IMG/VR virus record: IMGVR_UViG_2740892124_000001
DNA from: a virus
Lineage: Duplodnaviria > Heunggongvirae > Uroviricota > Caudoviricetes
Strand: one strand, 5' to 3'
DNA: 6,437 bases
Below are positions 2,482 through 6,437 of the stretch, piece after piece (the first letter of the stretch is position 1; the number at the start of each line of letters is the position of its first letter). The notes below the pieces were generated by a model. It ran no database searches, had not been told where the DNA came from, and was given only the letters and a program-made list of their open reading frames with translations. Made by a program: the position numbers and the translations under genes.

Positions 2482-3781
2482 TCTCCCGCATATTGCCAGT
2501 ATGGCCTTTAATGAGCCGCTGATGCTTGAACCCGCCTATGCGCGGGTTTTCTTTTGTGCGCTTGCAGGCCAGCTTGGGATCAGCCGCCTGACGGATGCGG
2601 TATCCGGCGACAGCCTGACTGCCGGAGAGGCACCCGCGGCGCTGGCGTTATCCGTTGATGATGACGGACCACGACAGGCCCGCAGTTATCAGGTCATGAA
2701 CGGCATCGCCGTGCTGCCGGTGTCCGGCACGCTGGTCAGTCGGACGCGAGCGCTGCAGCCGTATTCGGGGATGACCGGTTACAACGGCATTATCGCCCGT
2801 CTGCAACAGGCTGCCAGCGACCCGATGGTGGACGGCATTCTGCTCGATATGGATACGCCAGGCGGGATGGTGGCAGGGGCATTTGACTGCGCTGACATCA
2901 TCGCCCGTGTGCGTGACATAAAGCCGGTATGGGCGCTGGCCAACGACATGAACTGCAGTGCAGGTCAGTTGCTTGCCAGCGCCGCCTCCCGACGTCTGGT
3001 CACGCAGACCGCCCGGACAGGCTCCATCGGCGTCATGATGGCTCACAGTAATTACGGTGCTGCGCTGGAGAAACAGGGCGTGGAAATCACGCTGATTTAC
3101 AGCGGCAGCCATAAGGTGGATGGCAACCCCTACAGCCATCTACCGGATGATGTCCGGGAAACACTGCAGTCCCGGATGGATGCAACCCGCCGGATGTTTG
3201 CACAGAAGGTGTCGGCATATACCGGCCTGTCCGTGCAGGCTGTGCTGGATACCGAGGCTGCAGTGTACAGCGGTCAGGAGGCCATTGATGCCGGACTGGC
3301 TGATGAACTTGTTAACAGTACCGATGCGATCACCGTCATGCGTGATGCACTGGATGCACGTAAATCCCGTCTCTCAGGAGGGCGAATGACCAAAGAGACT
3401 CAATCAACAACTGTTTCAGCCACTGCTTCGCAGGCTGACGTTACTGGCGTGGTGCCAGCGACGGAGGGCGAGAACGCCAGCGCTGCGCAGCCGGACGTGA
3501 ACGCGCAGATCACCGCAGCGGTTGCGGCAGAAAACAGTCGCATTATGGGGATCCTCAACTGTGAGGAAGCTCACGGACGCGAAGAACAGGCACGCGTGCT
3601 GGCCGAAACCCCTGGTATGACCGTGGAAACGGCCCGCCGCATTCTGGCAGTTGCACCACAGAGTGCACAGGCGCGCAGTGACACTGCGCTGGATCGTCTG
3701 ATGCAGGGGGCACCGGCACCGCTGGCTGCAGGTAACCTGGCATCTGATGCCGTTAACGATTTGCTGAACACACCAGTGTAA
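2462..3781 (+). CDS. C: Prohead (capsid assembly) protease gpC, S49/SppA-like serine peptidase (439 aa, GTG start)
   Basis: GTG 2462 with a strong SD; TAA 3779-3781. Product begins (M/V)TAELRNLPHIASMAFNEPLMLEP and carries S49-type motifs: GILLDMDTPGG, NCSAGQ (Ser166, codon 2957-2959) and SGSHK (Lys218, codon 3113-3115). It overlaps the B 3' end by 20 nt. The ORF-track start at ATG 2327 is rejected: no SD and a 155-nt overlap with B. Confidence 0.9.
3376..3382 (+). promoter_or_regulatory. Internal Shine-Dalgarno (AGGAGGG) for nu3, within C coding sequence
   Basis: AGGAGGG lies 3 nt upstream of the in-frame ATG 3386, the strongest internal RBS-like signal inside C. Confidence 0.6.
3386..3781 (+). 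CDS. nu3: Scaffolding protein gpNu3 (131 aa), nested in-frame in the 3' third of C
   Basis: In-frame ATG 3386 preceded by AGGAGGG; shares the C reading frame and stop (3781). Product begins MTKETQSTTVSATASQADV and is Ala/Gln-rich. Lambda Nu3 is established to be co-linear with the C-terminal part of gpC. An earlier in-frame ATG at 3176 has no SD and is less likely. Confidence 0.78.
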   Translation: MTKETQSTTVSATASQADVTGVVPATEGENASAAQPDVNAQITAAVAAENSRIMGILNCEEAHGREEQARVLAETPGMTVETARRILAVAPQSAQARSDTALDRLMQGAPAPLAAGNLASDAVNDLLNTPV

Positions 3782-3790
3782 GGGATGTTT

Positions 3791-4123
3791 ATGACGAGCA
3801 AAGAAACCTTTACCCATTACCAGCCGCTGGGCAACAGTGACCCGGCTCATACCGCAACCGCGCCCGGCGGATTGAGTGCGAAAGCGCCTGCAATGACCCC
3901 GCTGATGCTGGACACCTCCAGCCGTAAGCTGGTTGCGTGGGATGGCACCACCGACGGTGCTGCCGTTGGCATTCTTGCGGTTGCTGCTGACCAGACCAGC
4001 ACCACGCTGACGTTCTACAAGTCCGGCACGTTCCGTTATGAGGATGTGCTCTGGCCGGAGGCTGCCAGCGACGAGACGAAAAAACGGACCGCGTTTGCCG
4101 GAACGGCAATCAGCATCGTTTAA
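3791..4123 (+). CDS. D: Head decoration protein gpD (110 aa)
   Basis: ATG 3791 with SD TAAGGGA (3778-3784); TAA 4121-4123. Protein [27 protein letters not shown]...AGTAISIV matches lambda gpD in length and sequence, with possible minor substitutions. Confidence 0.92.
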
Positions 4124-4140
4124 CTTTACCCTTCATCACT

Positions 4141-4165
4141 AAAGGCCGCCTGTGCGGCTTTTTTT
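4141..4165 (+). terminator. Intrinsic-terminator-like hairpin in the D-E intergenic region
   Basis: AAAGGCCGC-CTGT-GCGGCTTTTTTT: a 5-bp GC stem (4145-4149 pairing 4154-4158) with a 4-nt loop, flanked by an A-tract upstream and a 7-T run downstream (4159-4165). It lies between the D stop and the E start. Confidence 0.4.
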
Positions 4166-4178
4166 ACGGGATTTTTTT

Positions 4179-5204
4179 ATGTCGATGTACACAACCGCCC
4201 AGCTGCTGGCGGCAAATGAGCAGAAATTTAAGTTTGATCCGCTGTTTCTGCGTCTCTTTTTCCGTGAGAGCTATCCCTTCACCACGGAGAAAGTCTATCT
4301 CTCACAAATTCCGGGACTGGTAAACATGGCGCTGTACGTTTCGCCGATTGTTTCCGGTGAGGTTATCCGTTCCCGTGGCGGCTCCACCTCTGAATTTACG
4401 CCGGGATATGTCAAGCCGAAGCATGAAGTGAATCCGCAGATGACCCTGCGTCGCCTGCCGGATGAAGATCCGCAGAATCTGGTGGACCCGGCTTACCGCC
4501 GCCGTCGCATCATCATGCAGAACATGCGTGACGAAGAGCTGGCCATTGCTCAGGTCGAAGAGATGCAGGCAGTTTCTGCCGTGCTTAAGGGCAAATACAC
4601 CATGACCGGTGAAGCCTTCGATCCGGTTGAGGTGGATATGGGCCGCAGTGAGGAGAATAACATCACGCAGTCCGGCGGCACGGAGTGGAGCAAGCGTGAC
4701 AAGTCCACGTATGACCCGACCGACGATATCGAAGCCTACGCGCTGAACGCCAGCGGTGTGGTGAATATCATCGTGTTCGATCCGAAAGGCTGGGCGCTGT
4801 TCCGTTCCTTCAAAGCCGTCAAGGAGAAGCTGGATACCCGTCGTGGTTCTAATTCCGAGCTGGAGACAGCGGTGAAAGACCTGGGTAAAGCGGTGTCCTA
4901 TAAGGGGATGTATGGCGATGTGGCCATCGTCGTGTATTCCGGACAGTACGTGGAAAACGGCGTCAAAAAGAACTTCCTGCCGGACAACACGATGGTGCTG
5001 GGGAACACTCAGGCACGCGGTCTGCGCACCTATGGCTGCATTCAGGATGCGGACGCACAGCTCGAAGGCATTAACGCCTCTGCCCGTTACCCGAAAAACT
5101 GGGTGACCACCGGCGATCCGGCGCGTGAGTTCACCATGATTCAGTCAGCACCGCTGATGCTGCTGGCTGACCCTGATGAGTTCGTGTCCGTACAACTGGC
5201 GTAA
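4179..5204 (+). CDS. E: Major capsid protein gpE (341 aa)
   Basis: ATG 4179 to TAA 5202-5204. Protein MSMYTTAQLLAANEQKFKFDPLFLRLFFRESYPF...DPDEFVSVQLA matches lambda gpE in length and sequence. The ORF-track extension to 4152 is a GTG inside the upstream hairpin and is rejected. Confidence 0.95.
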   Translation: MSMYTTAQLLAANEQKFKFDPLFLRLFFRESYPFTTEKVYLSQIPGLVNMALYVSPIVSGEVIRSRGGSTSEFTPGYVKPKHEVNPQMTLRRLPDEDPQNLVDPAYRRRRIIMQNMRDEELAIAQVEEMQAVSAVLKGKYTMTGEAFDPVEVDMGRSEENNITQSGGTEWSKRDKSTYDPTDDIEAYALNASGVVNIIVFDPKGWALFRSFKAVKEKLDTRRGSNSELETAVKDLGKAVSYKGMYGDVAIVVYSGQYVENGVKKNFLPDNTMVLGNTQARGLRTYGCIQDADAQLEGINASARYPKNWVTTGDPAREFTMIQSAPLMLLADPDEFVSVQLA

Positions 5205-5206
5205 TC

Positions 5207-5224
5207 ATGGCCCTTCGGGGCCAT
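5207..5224 (+). other. Perfect 7-bp stem-loop with UUCG tetraloop immediately after E stop
   Basis: ATGGCCC-TTCG-GGGCCAT is a perfect inverted repeat with a UUCG loop, starting 3 nt after the E stop. No long U-tract follows (TGTTTCTCTG), so it looks more like an RNA stabilising or processing element than a strong terminator. Confidence 0.45.
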
Positions 5225-5235
5225 TGTTTCTCTGT

Positions 5236-5242
5236 GGAGGAG
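5236..5242 (+). promoter_or_regulatory. Shine-Dalgarno for FI (GGAGGAG)
   Basis: GGAGGAG lies 3 nt upstream of ATG 5246. Confidence 0.6.
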
Positions 5243-5245
5243 TCC

Positions 5246-5644
5246 ATGACGAAAGATGAACTGATTGCCCGTCTCCGCTCGCTGGGTGAACAACTGAACC
5301 GTGATGTCAGCCTGACGGGGACGAAAGAAGAACTGGCGCTCCGTGTGGCAGAGCTGGAAGAGGAGCTTGATGACACGGATGAAACTGCCGGTCAGGACAC
5401 CCCTCTCAGCCGGGAAAATGTGCTGACCGGACATGAAAATGAGGTGGGATCAGCGCAGCCGGATACCGTGATTCTGGATACGTCTGAACTGGTCACGGTC
5501 GTGGCACTGGTGACGCTGCATACTGATGCACTTCACGCCACGCGGGATGAACCTGTGGCATTTGTGCTTCCGGGAACGGCGTTCCGTGTCTCTGCCGGTG
5601 TGGCAGCCGAAATGACAGAACGTGGCCTGGCCAGAATGCAATAA
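5246..5644 (+). CDS. FI: DNA packaging / head assembly protein gpFI (132 aa)
   Basis: ATG 5246 with a strong SD; TAA 5642-5644. Protein MTKDELIARLRSLGEQLNRDVSLTGTKEELALRVAELEEELDDTDE... has an acidic linker, and length and sequence match lambda gpFI. The upstream in-frame ATG 5207 sits inside the hairpin and lacks an SD. Confidence 0.9.
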   Translation: MTKDELIARLRSLGEQLNRDVSLTGTKEELALRVAELEEELDDTDETAGQDTPLSRENVLTGHENEVGSAQPDTVILDTSELVTVVALVTLHTDALHATRDEPVAFVLPGTAFRVSAGVAAEMTERGLARMQ

Positions 5645-6020: not shown

Positions 6021-6437
6021 ATGGCCATAAAAGGTCTTGAGCAGGCCGTTGAAAACCTCAGCCGTATCAGCAGAACGGCGGTGCCCGGTGCCGCCGCAAT
6101 GGCCATTAACCGCGTTGCTTCATCCGCGATATCGCAGTCGGCGTCACAGGTTGCCCGTGAGACAAAGGTACGCCGGAAACTGGTAAAGGAAAGGGCCAGG
6201 CTGAAAAGGGCCACGGTCAAAAATCCGCAGGCCAGAATCAAGGTTAACCGGGGGGATTTGCCCGTAATCAGGCTGGGTAACGCGCGGGTTGTCCTGTCCC
6301 GACGCAGGCGTCGTAAAAAGGGGCAGCGTTCATCCCTGAAAGGTGGCGACAGCGTGCTTGTGGTGGGAAACCGTCGTAAGCGTAAACTGACCGCCGTATG
6401 TAGCCATCAGACGAGAATTGGTAACTTAGACGCCCAT
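6021..6437 (+). CDS. Z: Tail completion/assembly protein gpZ, 5' part (runs off window); last ~20 codons do not match lambda Z
   Basis: ATG 6021 with SD AGGGGGG (6010-6016); frame open to the window end. Codons 1-119 (MAIKGLEQAVENLSRIS...SVLVVGNRR) match lambda gpZ apart from a few substitutions. From nt 6379 the translation (KRKLTAVCSHQTRIGNLDAH) differs from the lambda continuation I recall (IPGAFIQQLKNGRWHVMQRV...). Confidence 0.8.
   Translation, partial: MAIKGLEQAVENLSRISRTAVPGAAAMAINRVASSAISQSASQVARETKVRRKLVKERARLKRATVKNPQARIKVNRGDLPVIRLGNARVVLSRRRRRKKGQRSSLKGGDSVLVVGNRRKRKLTAVCSHQTRIGNLDAH

What the first reader, a model, noticed from the sequence alone, without database searches (positions are those of the whole stretch)
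5205..5245. Very stable UUCG-tetraloop hairpin between E and FI that also sequesters an upstream in-frame ATG
Three nt after the E stop lies a perfect 7-bp stem (ATGGCCC/GGGCCAT) closed by a UUCG tetraloop, one of the most thermodynamically stable loop types. No U-tract follows, so it is unlikely to be an efficient intrinsic terminator. It may act as a 3' exonuclease barrier that stabilises the upstream D-E message, helping set the high E to low FI stoichiometry, or as a processing site. The ATG at 5207, which opens the longest FI ORF, is base-paired within the stem, so initiation should favour the SD-led ATG 5246.
Basis: seen in the sequence. Interest (0 to 1): 0.4.

Follow-up and report, generated by a model that had tools for sequence, protein, structure and literature searches.

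The report
Terminator-like hairpin after lambda capsid gene
The hairpin is real and evolutionarily conserved, but it is the ordinary terminator-type stem-loop that lambda-like phages (and T7 and SPP1) carry just after their major capsid gene, already annotated as a terminator in relatives N15 and HK225, and the "hidden ATG" inside it is incidental.

Summary
The window is the lambda-type head region (D, E, FI). The hairpin is confirmed exactly: ATGGCCC (5207-5213), TTCG (5214-5217), GGGCCAT (5218-5224), 2 nt after the E stop, about -12.5 kcal/mol. The five G-C pairs form with probability >=0.98 in every context tried.

A 7-bp stem alone is not unusual in 6.4 kb. Position and conservation make it significant. 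All 31 representative relatives, down to 35% E identity, have a hairpin of -10 kcal/mol or better within 36 nt of the capsid-gene stop. These fall into about 16 unrelated stem sequences. Within the lambda/N15 clade the two outer pairs covary.

The tail UGUUUCUC has 5 U in 8, many relatives have canonical U-tracts, and N15 and HK225 records annotate the orthologous hairpin as a rho-independent terminator.

The in-frame ATG is not conserved in sequence or frame and has no Shine-Dalgarno, so sequestration is incidental.

Most likely this is a weak intrinsic-terminator-type RNA element. Q-modified polymerase probably reads through it, leaving it as a 3'-end-forming and protecting stem-loop for the D-E message. 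That mechanism is inferred, not shown. It is a known kind of element and of low interest.

The parts
5202..5204 (+). Stop codon (TAA) of major capsid gene E (E = 4179-5204)
   Evidence: Lambda annotation E 6135-7160 with offset 1956. Pfam PF03864.
5207..5213 (+). 5' arm of the hairpin (AUGGCCC)
   Evidence: GGCCC is invariant in 22 distinct related sequences, and the two outer positions covary with their partners.
5214..5217 (+). UUCG tetraloop closed by C5213-G5218
   Evidence: Among relatives, the lambda-like clade has UUCG, UCCG or UGCG. The N15/phi80-like group has AUUC, UGUC, UGUU or UUUC.
5218..5224 (+). 3' arm of the hairpin (GGGCCAU)
5225..5233 (+). Pyrimidine/U-rich tail UGUUUCUCU, a degenerate terminator U-tract
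   Evidence: 5 T of 8, flagged by the terminator scan. Tail score -3.66. Variants UUUUCUCUCU and UGUUUUUCU occur in close relatives. U is enriched after the hairpin in 9 of 16 independent hairpin classes.
5234..5247 (+). Small second hairpin GUGGA(GGAG)UCCAU. It pairs the FI AUG and leaves GGAG of the Shine-Dalgarno in the loop.
   Evidence: Present in MFE and centroid. Paired probability is >0.87 for A5246 and U5247, and the loop GGAG is >0.92 unpaired. Seen in the lambda-like clade only.
5246..5644 (+). Gene FI (DNA packaging chaperone), true start at ATG 5246
   Evidence: Lambda annotation FI 7202-7600. The Pfam PF14000 profile starts at residue 2.
4141..4165 (+). Companion element in the D-E spacer: AAAGGCCGC CUGU GCGGCUUUU + UUU, a canonical intrinsic-terminator-like hairpin, so gene E is bracketed by two such hairpins
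   Evidence: Conserved upstream of E in most of 26 relatives, with different stems.

Best explanation
This is the lambda copy of a conserved, terminator-type RNA stem-loop that sits immediately downstream of the major capsid gene in the whole E-family of head modules.

It acts on the + strand transcript. The G+C-rich hairpin plus a degenerate U-rich tail makes it a weak intrinsic terminator for ordinary RNA polymerase. The late operon is transcribed by Q-modified, terminator-resistant polymerase, so most lytic transcripts probably read through. The hairpin then folds behind the polymerase. There it can define and protect a 3' end for the upstream D-E message, after rare termination or after downstream cleavage and 3'-to-5' exonuclease trimming.

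Shown here: the structure, its strand, its position and its conservation. Inferred: readthrough by Q-modified polymerase, 3'-end formation and 3'-end protection. The ATG inside the stem has no function of its own.
For: Structure: the 7-bp stem with a C(UUCG)G loop is in the MFE and centroid structures, with core pair probabilities >=0.98.

Positional conservation despite sequence turnover: 31 of 31 representative relatives (E identity 100% down to 35%) have a hairpin of <=-10 kcal/mol within 36 nt of the capsid stop. Only 25% of 75-nt control pieces of E coding sequence do (Mann-Whitney p = 2e-16; about 16 independent stem classes).

Covariation in the two outer pairs: A-U/G-U/G-C and U-A/C-G/U-G. 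There are 8 double-change cells against 1.8 in shuffles, 96.8% of cells are paired against 33-58% when the partner is slid, and RNAalifold predicts only this helix.

Strand: the G-U wobbles (GTG...CAT in 17 of 80 close relatives), the UNCG loops and the downstream U-tract all make sense only for + strand RNA.

Terminator character: 24 of 31 relatives have a tail score below -2.5. Several have 6-8 U (L159, L110, L113, L116, L118, L126, L129, L130). U is enriched in 9 of 16 independent classes (p about 2e-5).

Context: the D-E spacer carries a second, canonical and equally conserved terminator-like hairpin. Among lambda's late-region gaps, the long true spacers D-E, E-FI, I-J, J-lom and lom-stf each carry a hairpin followed by a U-rich tract, and short spacers have none.

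Precedent: T7 Tphi lies immediately after capsid gene 10, with a drop in downstream RNA (PMC6938266). An SPP1 predicted terminator at 8775-8815 directly follows capsid gene 13, which ends at 8777 (PMC6316719).
Against: No transcript data were available, so neither termination nor 3'-end protection is demonstrated for this site.

Lambda's own tail is poor (UGUUUCUC, a G at +2, and weak A-U/U-A pairs at the stem base). Efficiency as a terminator is therefore probably low even for unmodified polymerase.

Five of 16 hairpin classes lack any U-tract (L128, L131, L146, L154, L158). The universally conserved part is the hairpin, not the terminator as a whole.

The hairpin begins only 2 nt after the stop codon, so ribosomes terminating on the heavily translated E message must melt it repeatedly (inference).

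By its title, Sampson et al. 1988 attributes relative late-gene expression to translation initiation. Any contribution of this element to the E:FI ratio may therefore be small.

The I-J spacer hairpin follows a low-abundance protein, so 'hairpins follow abundant genes' is not a strict rule.
Confidence: 0.55

Rival explanations
1. It is purely a back-up intrinsic terminator for polymerases that are not Q-modified. These would include leaky or spurious transcription through the late region of a prophage. On this reading it has no role in lytic-phase message stability or stoichiometry.
For: Hairpin plus U-rich tail, with canonical U-tracts in many relatives. Lambda's long true late-region spacers D-E, E-FI, I-J, J-lom and lom-stf each carry such an element. 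The orthologues are annotated as terminators. It is established knowledge that Q-modified polymerase ignores terminators.
Against: The element lies about 6 kb downstream of the lysis genes, which are the dangerous ones to leak. The lambda tail is weak. Classes without a U-tract still keep the hairpin. This reading does not explain why the element always sits exactly after the capsid gene.
Confidence: 0.2
2. It is a translational insulator. The stable hairpin and 41-nt spacer stop ribosomes that finish the very heavily translated E cistron from sliding on and re-initiating at FI. Together with the small SD/AUG hairpin, this keeps FI translation low and independent of E.
For: Most lambda late genes are separated by <=15 nt or overlap. 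The two highly expressed genes D and E are each followed by a long spacer with a hairpin. The hairpin lies between the stop codon and the next Shine-Dalgarno in all 31 relatives. The FI AUG is paired in a mini-hairpin. The title of Sampson et al. 1988 says late-gene ratios are set by translation initiation.
Against: It does not explain the conserved U-rich tail. The mini-hairpin is weak and limited to the lambda-like clade. There is no direct evidence of coupling or its absence at this junction.
Confidence: 0.15
3. One reading: the hairpin exists to mask the in-frame ATG at 5207, so that FI is made only from ATG 5246.
For: ATG 5207 is in frame with FI and its U and G are paired. The phi80 record even annotates FI from the equivalent GTG.
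Against: The triplet is ATG, GTG, CTG, CCG, GCG or ACG in relatives, and it is out of frame in 9 of the 16 scored (one distance, L110, is unreliable). I saw no Shine-Dalgarno-like sequence upstream of it. The A of the ATG is paired only about 50-70% of the time. The Pfam FI profile starts at the 5246 protein. Distant relatives keep a hairpin with unrelated sequence.
Confidence: 0.03
4. It is a chance palindrome, or a DNA-level binding site for a dimeric protein, with no RNA function.
For: A 7-bp perfect stem is not statistically unusual in a 6.4-kb window. The GGCCC/GGGCC core is invariant in the lambda/N15 clade.
Against: There is positional conservation with about 16 unrelated stem sequences. 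There are compensatory and G-U changes that would be C-A mismatches on the other strand. The loops vary freely while the stem is kept. The U-tract is strand-asymmetric.
Confidence: 0.03

Closest known systems
Annotated stem-loops or terminators between the major capsid gene and FI in phage N15 (NC_001901.1, 7053-7073) and HK225 (JQ086371.1, 7009-7028)
   Same: Same genomic position (after the E homologue, before the FI homologue), same GGCCC/GGGCC stem core, 7-bp stem and 4-nt loop, followed by a short pyrimidine/U-rich run and then the FI Shine-Dalgarno.
   Different: The outer pair is G-C instead of A-U. The loop is AUUC or UGUC instead of UUCG. The gap after the stop is 9 nt instead of 2. 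The tail is CUUUCU instead of UGUUUCUCU. The annotations are predictions, not experiments.
Terminators placed directly after the major capsid gene in other phages: T7 Tphi after gene 10, and the SPP1 predicted terminator after gene 13
   Same: A stem-loop terminator immediately downstream of the most abundantly needed structural gene, inside a long polycistronic late region. In T7, downstream RNA drops after it (PMC6938266; PMC6316719).
   Different: There is no sequence or capsid-gene homology tested. T7 uses its own polymerase and Tphi is a documented partial terminator. Lambda late transcription is Q-antiterminated, so termination here is expected to be much weaker.
Intercistronic 3' stabiliser hairpins in operons: selective RNA processing and stabilisation, for example the malE-malF REP hairpin, the puf operon and the cip-cel operon
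   Same: A stable hairpin just 3' of the cistron whose product is needed in excess, with a proposed exonuclease barrier setting stoichiometry (principle from established literature; cip-cel example PMC10311766 listed).
   Different: Those cases have mapped 3' ends and measured segment half-lives. Nothing of the kind is available here. The lambda element also carries a terminator-like U-rich tail.
C(UUCG)G tetraloop hairpins (Tuerk et al. 1988, own knowledge; paper not held)
   Same: Exact C(UUCG)G loop on a G+C-rich stem in a phage intercistronic region.
   Different: The loop identity is not required. Relatives use UCCG, UGCG, AUUC, UGUC, UGUU and UUUC, and distant relatives have 3-9-nt loops of other kinds.

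Membership tests
Rho-independent (intrinsic) terminator | G+C-rich stem of about 5-14 bp with a 3-8-nt loop on the transcribed strand | tested here: met
   7 bp including 5 G-C pairs, 4-nt loop, + strand.
Rho-independent (intrinsic) terminator | U-tract of about 7-9 nt immediately 3' of the stem | tested here: inconclusive
   UGUUUCUC has 5 U in 8 and a tail score of -3.66, which passes a -2.5 cutoff. The tract is interrupted by a G at +2 and by C residues. Relatives range from 0 to 7 U in 8.
Rho-independent (intrinsic) terminator | Located downstream of a stop codon, at the end of a transcription unit or intercistronic | tested here: met
   2 nt after the E stop, in a 41-nt spacer.
Rho-independent (intrinsic) terminator | Transcripts actually end there (in vitro termination or in vivo 3' ends) | not testable with these tools
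   No transcript data are accessible. The Term-seq data of PMC7547250 are only in GEO.
UNCG / C(UUCG)G tetraloop hairpin | Loop UUCG closed by a C-G pair | tested here: met
   C5213 UUCG G5218.
UNCG / C(UUCG)G tetraloop hairpin | Loop type maintained by selection among relatives | tested here: inconclusive
   The lambda-like clade has UUCG, UCCG or UGCG, all UNCG. The N15/phi80-like group has AUUC, UGUC, UGUU or UUUC. Distant relatives have other loops.
mRNA 3' stabiliser hairpin (exonuclease barrier) | Stable stem-loop 3' of the cistron needed in excess | tested here: met
   -12.3 to -12.9 kcal/mol directly after E. A second hairpin follows D. Present in 31 of 31 relatives.
mRNA 3' stabiliser hairpin (exonuclease barrier) | Processed 3' ends at the hairpin base and a longer half-life of the upstream segment | not testable with these tools
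   Needs RNA 3'-end mapping and decay measurements.
Start-codon sequestering hairpin (translational control) | The masked codon is a usable, conserved start (SD, frame, conservation) | tested here: not met
   I saw no SD-like sequence upstream. The triplet and its frame are not conserved. The FI family profile starts at the 5246 protein.
RNase III processing site (for example T7 R sites, lambda sib) | Roughly 20 bp or more of double-stranded RNA | tested here: not met
   Only a 7-bp stem, with no longer helix in 66-nt to 650-nt contexts.
Any curated Rfam family | Covariance-model match at or above the gathering score | tested here: not met
   The best overlap is PhotoRC-I at 14.2 bits against a 45-bit cutoff, E = 5.9.

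The most novel reading that the evidence does not exclude
The capsid gene E is deliberately bracketed by two deeply conserved terminator-type hairpins, one in D-E and one in E-FI, inside an operon whose polymerase ignores terminators. On this reading the pair forms a post-transcriptional 'capsid message cassette'. After readthrough, the hairpins would fix protected 3' ends for D- and E-containing RNA segments and uncouple their translation from neighbouring genes. Terminator-like sequences in Q-antiterminated operons would then be selected mainly for RNA-level functions rather than for termination.
Probability: 0.25. Interest if true: 0.4.

Novelty: already known. Interest (0 to 1): 0.17.

Why it matters
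The practical value is small. Annotators should mark a terminator-like stem-loop in the lambda E-FI spacer, as is done for N15 and HK225. They should not extend FI to the upstream ATG or GTG, as the phi80 record does.

Biologically it touches a modest open point: why terminator-type hairpins are so faithfully kept on both sides of the capsid gene in operons read by terminator-resistant polymerase. If they act after transcription, on message stability or translational insulation, that would refine the textbook view that lambda late-gene ratios are set only by translation initiation.

Tried and rejected
- Rfam scan of the whole window at E<=10 found no family for the hairpin.
- Literature searches for an explicit description of this lambda hairpin, or for 3'-end mapping of lambda late RNA, found nothing usable.
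- Several papers are not held: Liu et al. 2013, Casjens & Hendrix 2015, Tuerk et al. 1988 and Sampson et al. 1988. Only the reference and title of Sampson et al. could be confirmed.
- The EHEC Term-seq paper holds no site table in its text, and the data are only in GEO.
- The lambda CRISPRi paper says nothing about terminators.
- The related-loci search with the single E protein returned only relatives >=98% identical. An alignment query on species-representative genomes was needed to obtain diversity.
- RNase III site: rejected because the stem is too short.
- DNA-level palindrome: rejected because of G-U wobbles and strand asymmetry.
- Pairing of the pyrimidine tail with the FI Shine-Dalgarno (seen when the 41-nt spacer is folded alone) was considered as an anti-SD. 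It is weak and is replaced by the mini-hairpin in longer contexts. It cannot form in the N15-like relatives.

Full report
**What the window is.**
The window is a lambda-type head-gene region. It matches phage 434 and PhiR11_1 at 99.7% and lambda at 99.4% over 5050-5400. Window coordinates equal lambda coordinates minus 1956. Pfam confirms three genes: D (3791-4123, PF02924), the major capsid protein E (4179-5204, PF03864) and the packaging chaperone FI (5246-5644, PF14000). The finding's range 5205-5245 is exactly the 41-nt E-FI spacer.

**Check of the observation.**
The sequence reads TAA(5202-5204) TC ATGGCCC(5207-5213) TTCG(5214-5217) GGGCCAT(5218-5224) TGTTTCTCT GTGGAGGAGTCC ATG(5246). The stem is therefore a perfect 7 bp, and the loop is a UUCG tetraloop closed by C-G.

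- The hairpin is in the minimum-energy and centroid structures of 66-nt and 201-nt contexts.
- Alone it is -12.3 kcal/mol. In a 24-nt window it is -12.9, the fourth most stable of all 24-nt windows on this strand.
- In partition-function folds with 30, 100 or 300 nt of flank, the five G-C pairs have probability >=0.98 and U5208-A5223 has 0.86-0.92.
- The outermost A5207-U5224 pair has only 0.47-0.71.

The motif by itself is not beyond chance for 6.4 kb. There are three perfect 7-bp stems on the strand against 3.0 expected in dinucleotide shuffles. About 0.35 are expected with a 4-nt loop and >=5 G-C pairs, and there is one CTTCGG against 1.3 expected. Two other things make it non-random. First, it lies in one of only two spacers longer than 40 nt in the window. 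Second, it is conserved, as described below. In whole lambda, only this one of 17 CTTCGG sites on either strand has a stem of >=5 bp.

One element of the description is wrong. The hairpin is followed by a U-rich tail (TGTTTCTC, 5 T of 8), and the consensus scan lists it as terminator-like.

**Close relatives.**
Eighty IMG/VR loci with E >=98% identical keep the 18-nt hairpin almost unchanged. The exception is ATG to GTG in 17 loci, which turns the outer A-U pair into a G-U wobble. Variation concentrates instead in the tail (TTGTTTCTCT, TTTTCTCTCT, TTGTTTTTCT, TTGTCTCTCT) and in the Shine-Dalgarno region.

**More distant relatives.**
N15, phi80, HK225, mEp237 and an Enterobacter ravinvirus match this stretch at 70-73% nucleotide identity. 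After the E homologue's stop they have CTTCC(A/C)CC(T/A) GTGGCCC (ATTC or TGTC) GGGCCAC CTTTCTGGAG...ATG. This is the same GGCCC/GGGCC core, with the outer A-U replaced by G-C and with different loops. The HK225 record annotates it as a 'rho-independent terminator'.

**Covariation.**
I aligned 22 distinct sequences of this clade.

- The five inner pairs never vary.
- Outer pair 1 is A-U in 9, G-U in 7, G-C in 4 and unpaired in 2.
- Outer pair 2 is U-A in 14, C-G in 4, U-G in 1 and unpaired in 3.
- Overall 96.8% of cells are paired, against 33-58% when the 3' partner is slid by 1-3 columns.
- There are 8 double-change cells against 1.8 in shuffles, with 0 of 500 shuffles reaching the observed value.
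- RNAalifold predicts this helix and nothing else.

**Species-representative genomes.**
An alignment of 14 E proteins retrieved 75 loci from species-representative genomes. Many of these are lambda DNA contaminating unrelated assemblies. After removing those, 31 representative junctions remain, with E identity from 100% down to 35%.

- Every one has a hairpin of -10 to -26 kcal/mol starting 1-36 nt after the capsid-gene stop. These fall into about 16 unrelated stem sequences.
- In 75-nt control pieces of E coding sequence from the same loci, only 25% reach -10 kcal/mol. The means are -14.5 versus -7.8, with Mann-Whitney p = 2e-16. This p-value is not corrected for relatedness of the sequences.
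- The tail after the hairpin is U-rich in most. Twenty-four of 31 have a TransTermHP-style tail score below -2.5, and lambda's is -3.66.
- Several relatives have 6-7 U in the first eight positions after the stem, for example L159, L110, L113, L116, L118, L126, L129 and L130.
- With one representative per independent class, 9 of 16 have >=4 U in 8, giving p about 2e-5 against a 25% background.
- Five classes (L128, L131, L146, L154, L158) have strong hairpins but no U-tract. The hairpin is therefore the universal part, and the U-tract is frequent but dispensable.

**Strand and level of action.**
Four observations fit an RNA structure on the + strand and argue against a DNA palindrome bound by a protein or an antisense element. 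The G-U wobbles would be C-A mismatches on the complementary strand. The lambda-like clade has UNCG-type loops (UUCG, UCCG, UGCG). The U-rich tail is on one side only. The loops vary freely over a kept stem.

**The in-frame ATG.**
ATG 5207 does open the longest FI-frame ORF, but it is incidental.

- The equivalent triplet is ATG, GTG, CTG, CCG, GCG or ACG in relatives.
- It is out of frame with FI in 9 of the 16 sequences scored. The L110 distance was measured to a mis-called ATG inside the SD region and is unreliable.
- I saw no Shine-Dalgarno-like sequence in the bases preceding it.
- Its A is paired only about half the time.
- The Pfam FI profile begins at residue 2 of the 5246 protein and at residue 15 of the extended one.
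- Lambda, N15, HK225 and mEp237 records all start FI at the SD-led ATG. The phi80 record starts it at the GTG inside the stem, which looks like an annotation artefact.

**Context.**
The D-E spacer (4124-4178) contains AAAGGCCGC CUGU GCGGCUUUU UUU (4141-4165). This is a canonical terminator-like hairpin that the simple scan missed. A hairpin with a U-tract is found upstream of E in most of 26 relatives, again with different stems. Gene E is therefore bracketed by two such elements. In whole lambda, the long true late-region spacers D-E, E-FI, I-J, J-lom and lom-stf each contain a hairpin followed by a U-rich tract, and the short spacers (7-26 nt) have none. The other long gaps listed are not informative: nu1-A and L-K come from that record's gene calls, and the stretch after tfa lies past the end of the late genes.

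Downstream of the main hairpin lies a small helix, GUGGA(GGAG)UCCAU (5234-5247). It pairs the FI AUG and leaves GGAG exposed. It is confined to the lambda-like clade.

**Mechanism.**
What is shown is a conserved RNA hairpin of intrinsic-terminator type immediately after the capsid gene. What follows is inference.

It is established knowledge that lambda late transcription is carried out by Q-modified RNA polymerase, which resists terminators over more than 20 kb. During lytic growth most polymerases should therefore pass this weak site. Its weak points are A-U/U-A pairs at the stem base, an interrupted U-tract and no upstream A-tract. The hairpin would then fold behind the polymerase.

There it is well placed to arrest 3'-to-5' exonucleases after rare termination or after downstream endonucleolytic cleavage. 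That would protect the D-E part of the message. I give 0.55 to this combined reading, a weak terminator that acts mainly as a 3'-end-forming and protecting hairpin.

The rivals are as follows.

- A back-up terminator that matters only for unmodified polymerase, for example in lysogens (0.2).
- A translational insulator between the very heavily translated E and the weakly translated FI (0.15). This would fit the title claim of Sampson et al. 1988 that translation initiation sets late-gene ratios (reference confirmed).
- Masking of ATG 5207 (0.03).
- Chance or a DNA-level site (0.03).

RNase III processing is unlikely because the stem is only 7 bp.

**Comparison with what is known.**
The closest known things are the orthologous, already annotated N15 and HK225 stem-loops. 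The same arrangement is documented or predicted in unrelated phages. T7 Tphi lies immediately after capsid gene 10, with lower RNA downstream (PMC6938266). An SPP1 predicted terminator at 8775-8815 directly follows capsid gene 13, which ends at 8777 (PMC6316719). Intercistronic stabiliser hairpins in operons are the functional analogue. No Rfam family matches.

**Verdict.**
The element is an ordinary, previously recognised kind of feature. Interest is low. The only mildly open question is what terminator-type hairpins flanking the capsid gene do in an antiterminated operon.

Noticed in passing
window 4141-4165 (D-E spacer 4124-4178): A canonical intrinsic-terminator-like hairpin, AAAGGCCGC CUGU GCGGCUUUU followed by UUU, at -12.2 kcal/mol. 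scan_promoters_terminators missed it, probably because the A-U pairs absorb the U-tract. A hairpin with a U-tract occurs upstream of the E homologue in most of 26 relatives, with different stem sequences, so E is bracketed by two such hairpins.
   Followed up: partly
window 5234-5247: A small hairpin GUGGA(GGAG)UCCAU pairs the FI start codon (paired probability >0.87) and leaves GGAG of the Shine-Dalgarno in the loop. Natural variants include two wobble-preserving changes (C5244U, A5238G) and one breaking change. It is seen only in the lambda-like clade.
   Followed up: partly
L003 463-915 (phi80 JX871397.1 7196-7648): The phi80 record starts its FI homologue at the GTG inside the hairpin stem. 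That is 12 codons upstream of the SD-led ATG used in the N15, HK225 and mEp237 records, so it is probably an over-extended gene call.
   Followed up: partly
window 2528-2549 (inside gene C): A terminator-like hairpin GAACCCGC CTATGC GCGGGTTT followed by TCTTTTGT lies within coding sequence. It has 8 pairs and is -10.7 to -12.5 kcal/mol. Its conservation was not examined.
   Followed up: no
L162 15445-15504, 18904-18964, 19586-19649 (lambda I-J, J-lom, lom-stf spacers): Each of these long late-region spacers also holds a G+C-rich hairpin followed by a U-rich tract, for example GAAACCGCC UGCG GGCGGUUUU and CCCGCCGGAACCGGUGGGCUUUUUU.
   Followed up: no
L087-L102, L121, L123, L127, L132, L134, L136-L139, L141-L144, L147, L149, L150, L152, L155-L157, L160: Lambda E sequence at 96-100% identity turns up on short, low-coverage contigs of many unrelated genome assemblies (Pseudoxanthomonas, Chromatium, Kitasatospora, Paenibacillus, Bradyrhizobium, Corynebacterium and others). 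This is most likely lambda control or ladder DNA contaminating the assemblies.
   Followed up: no
P0005, P0006, P0008: Database proteins of 441-467 aa carry both the capsid-E and the FI Pfam domains. E and FI are in different reading frames in the window (4179 versus 5246), so these are probably frameshifted or mis-called fusions across the hairpin spacer.
   Followed up: no
window 6075-6098, 1854-1877 and 2213-2236: These are the three most stable local 24-nt hairpins on the + strand (-15.2, -15.0 and -13.5 kcal/mol). They lie inside coding sequence (Z and B) and are more stable than the E-FI hairpin.
   Followed up: no
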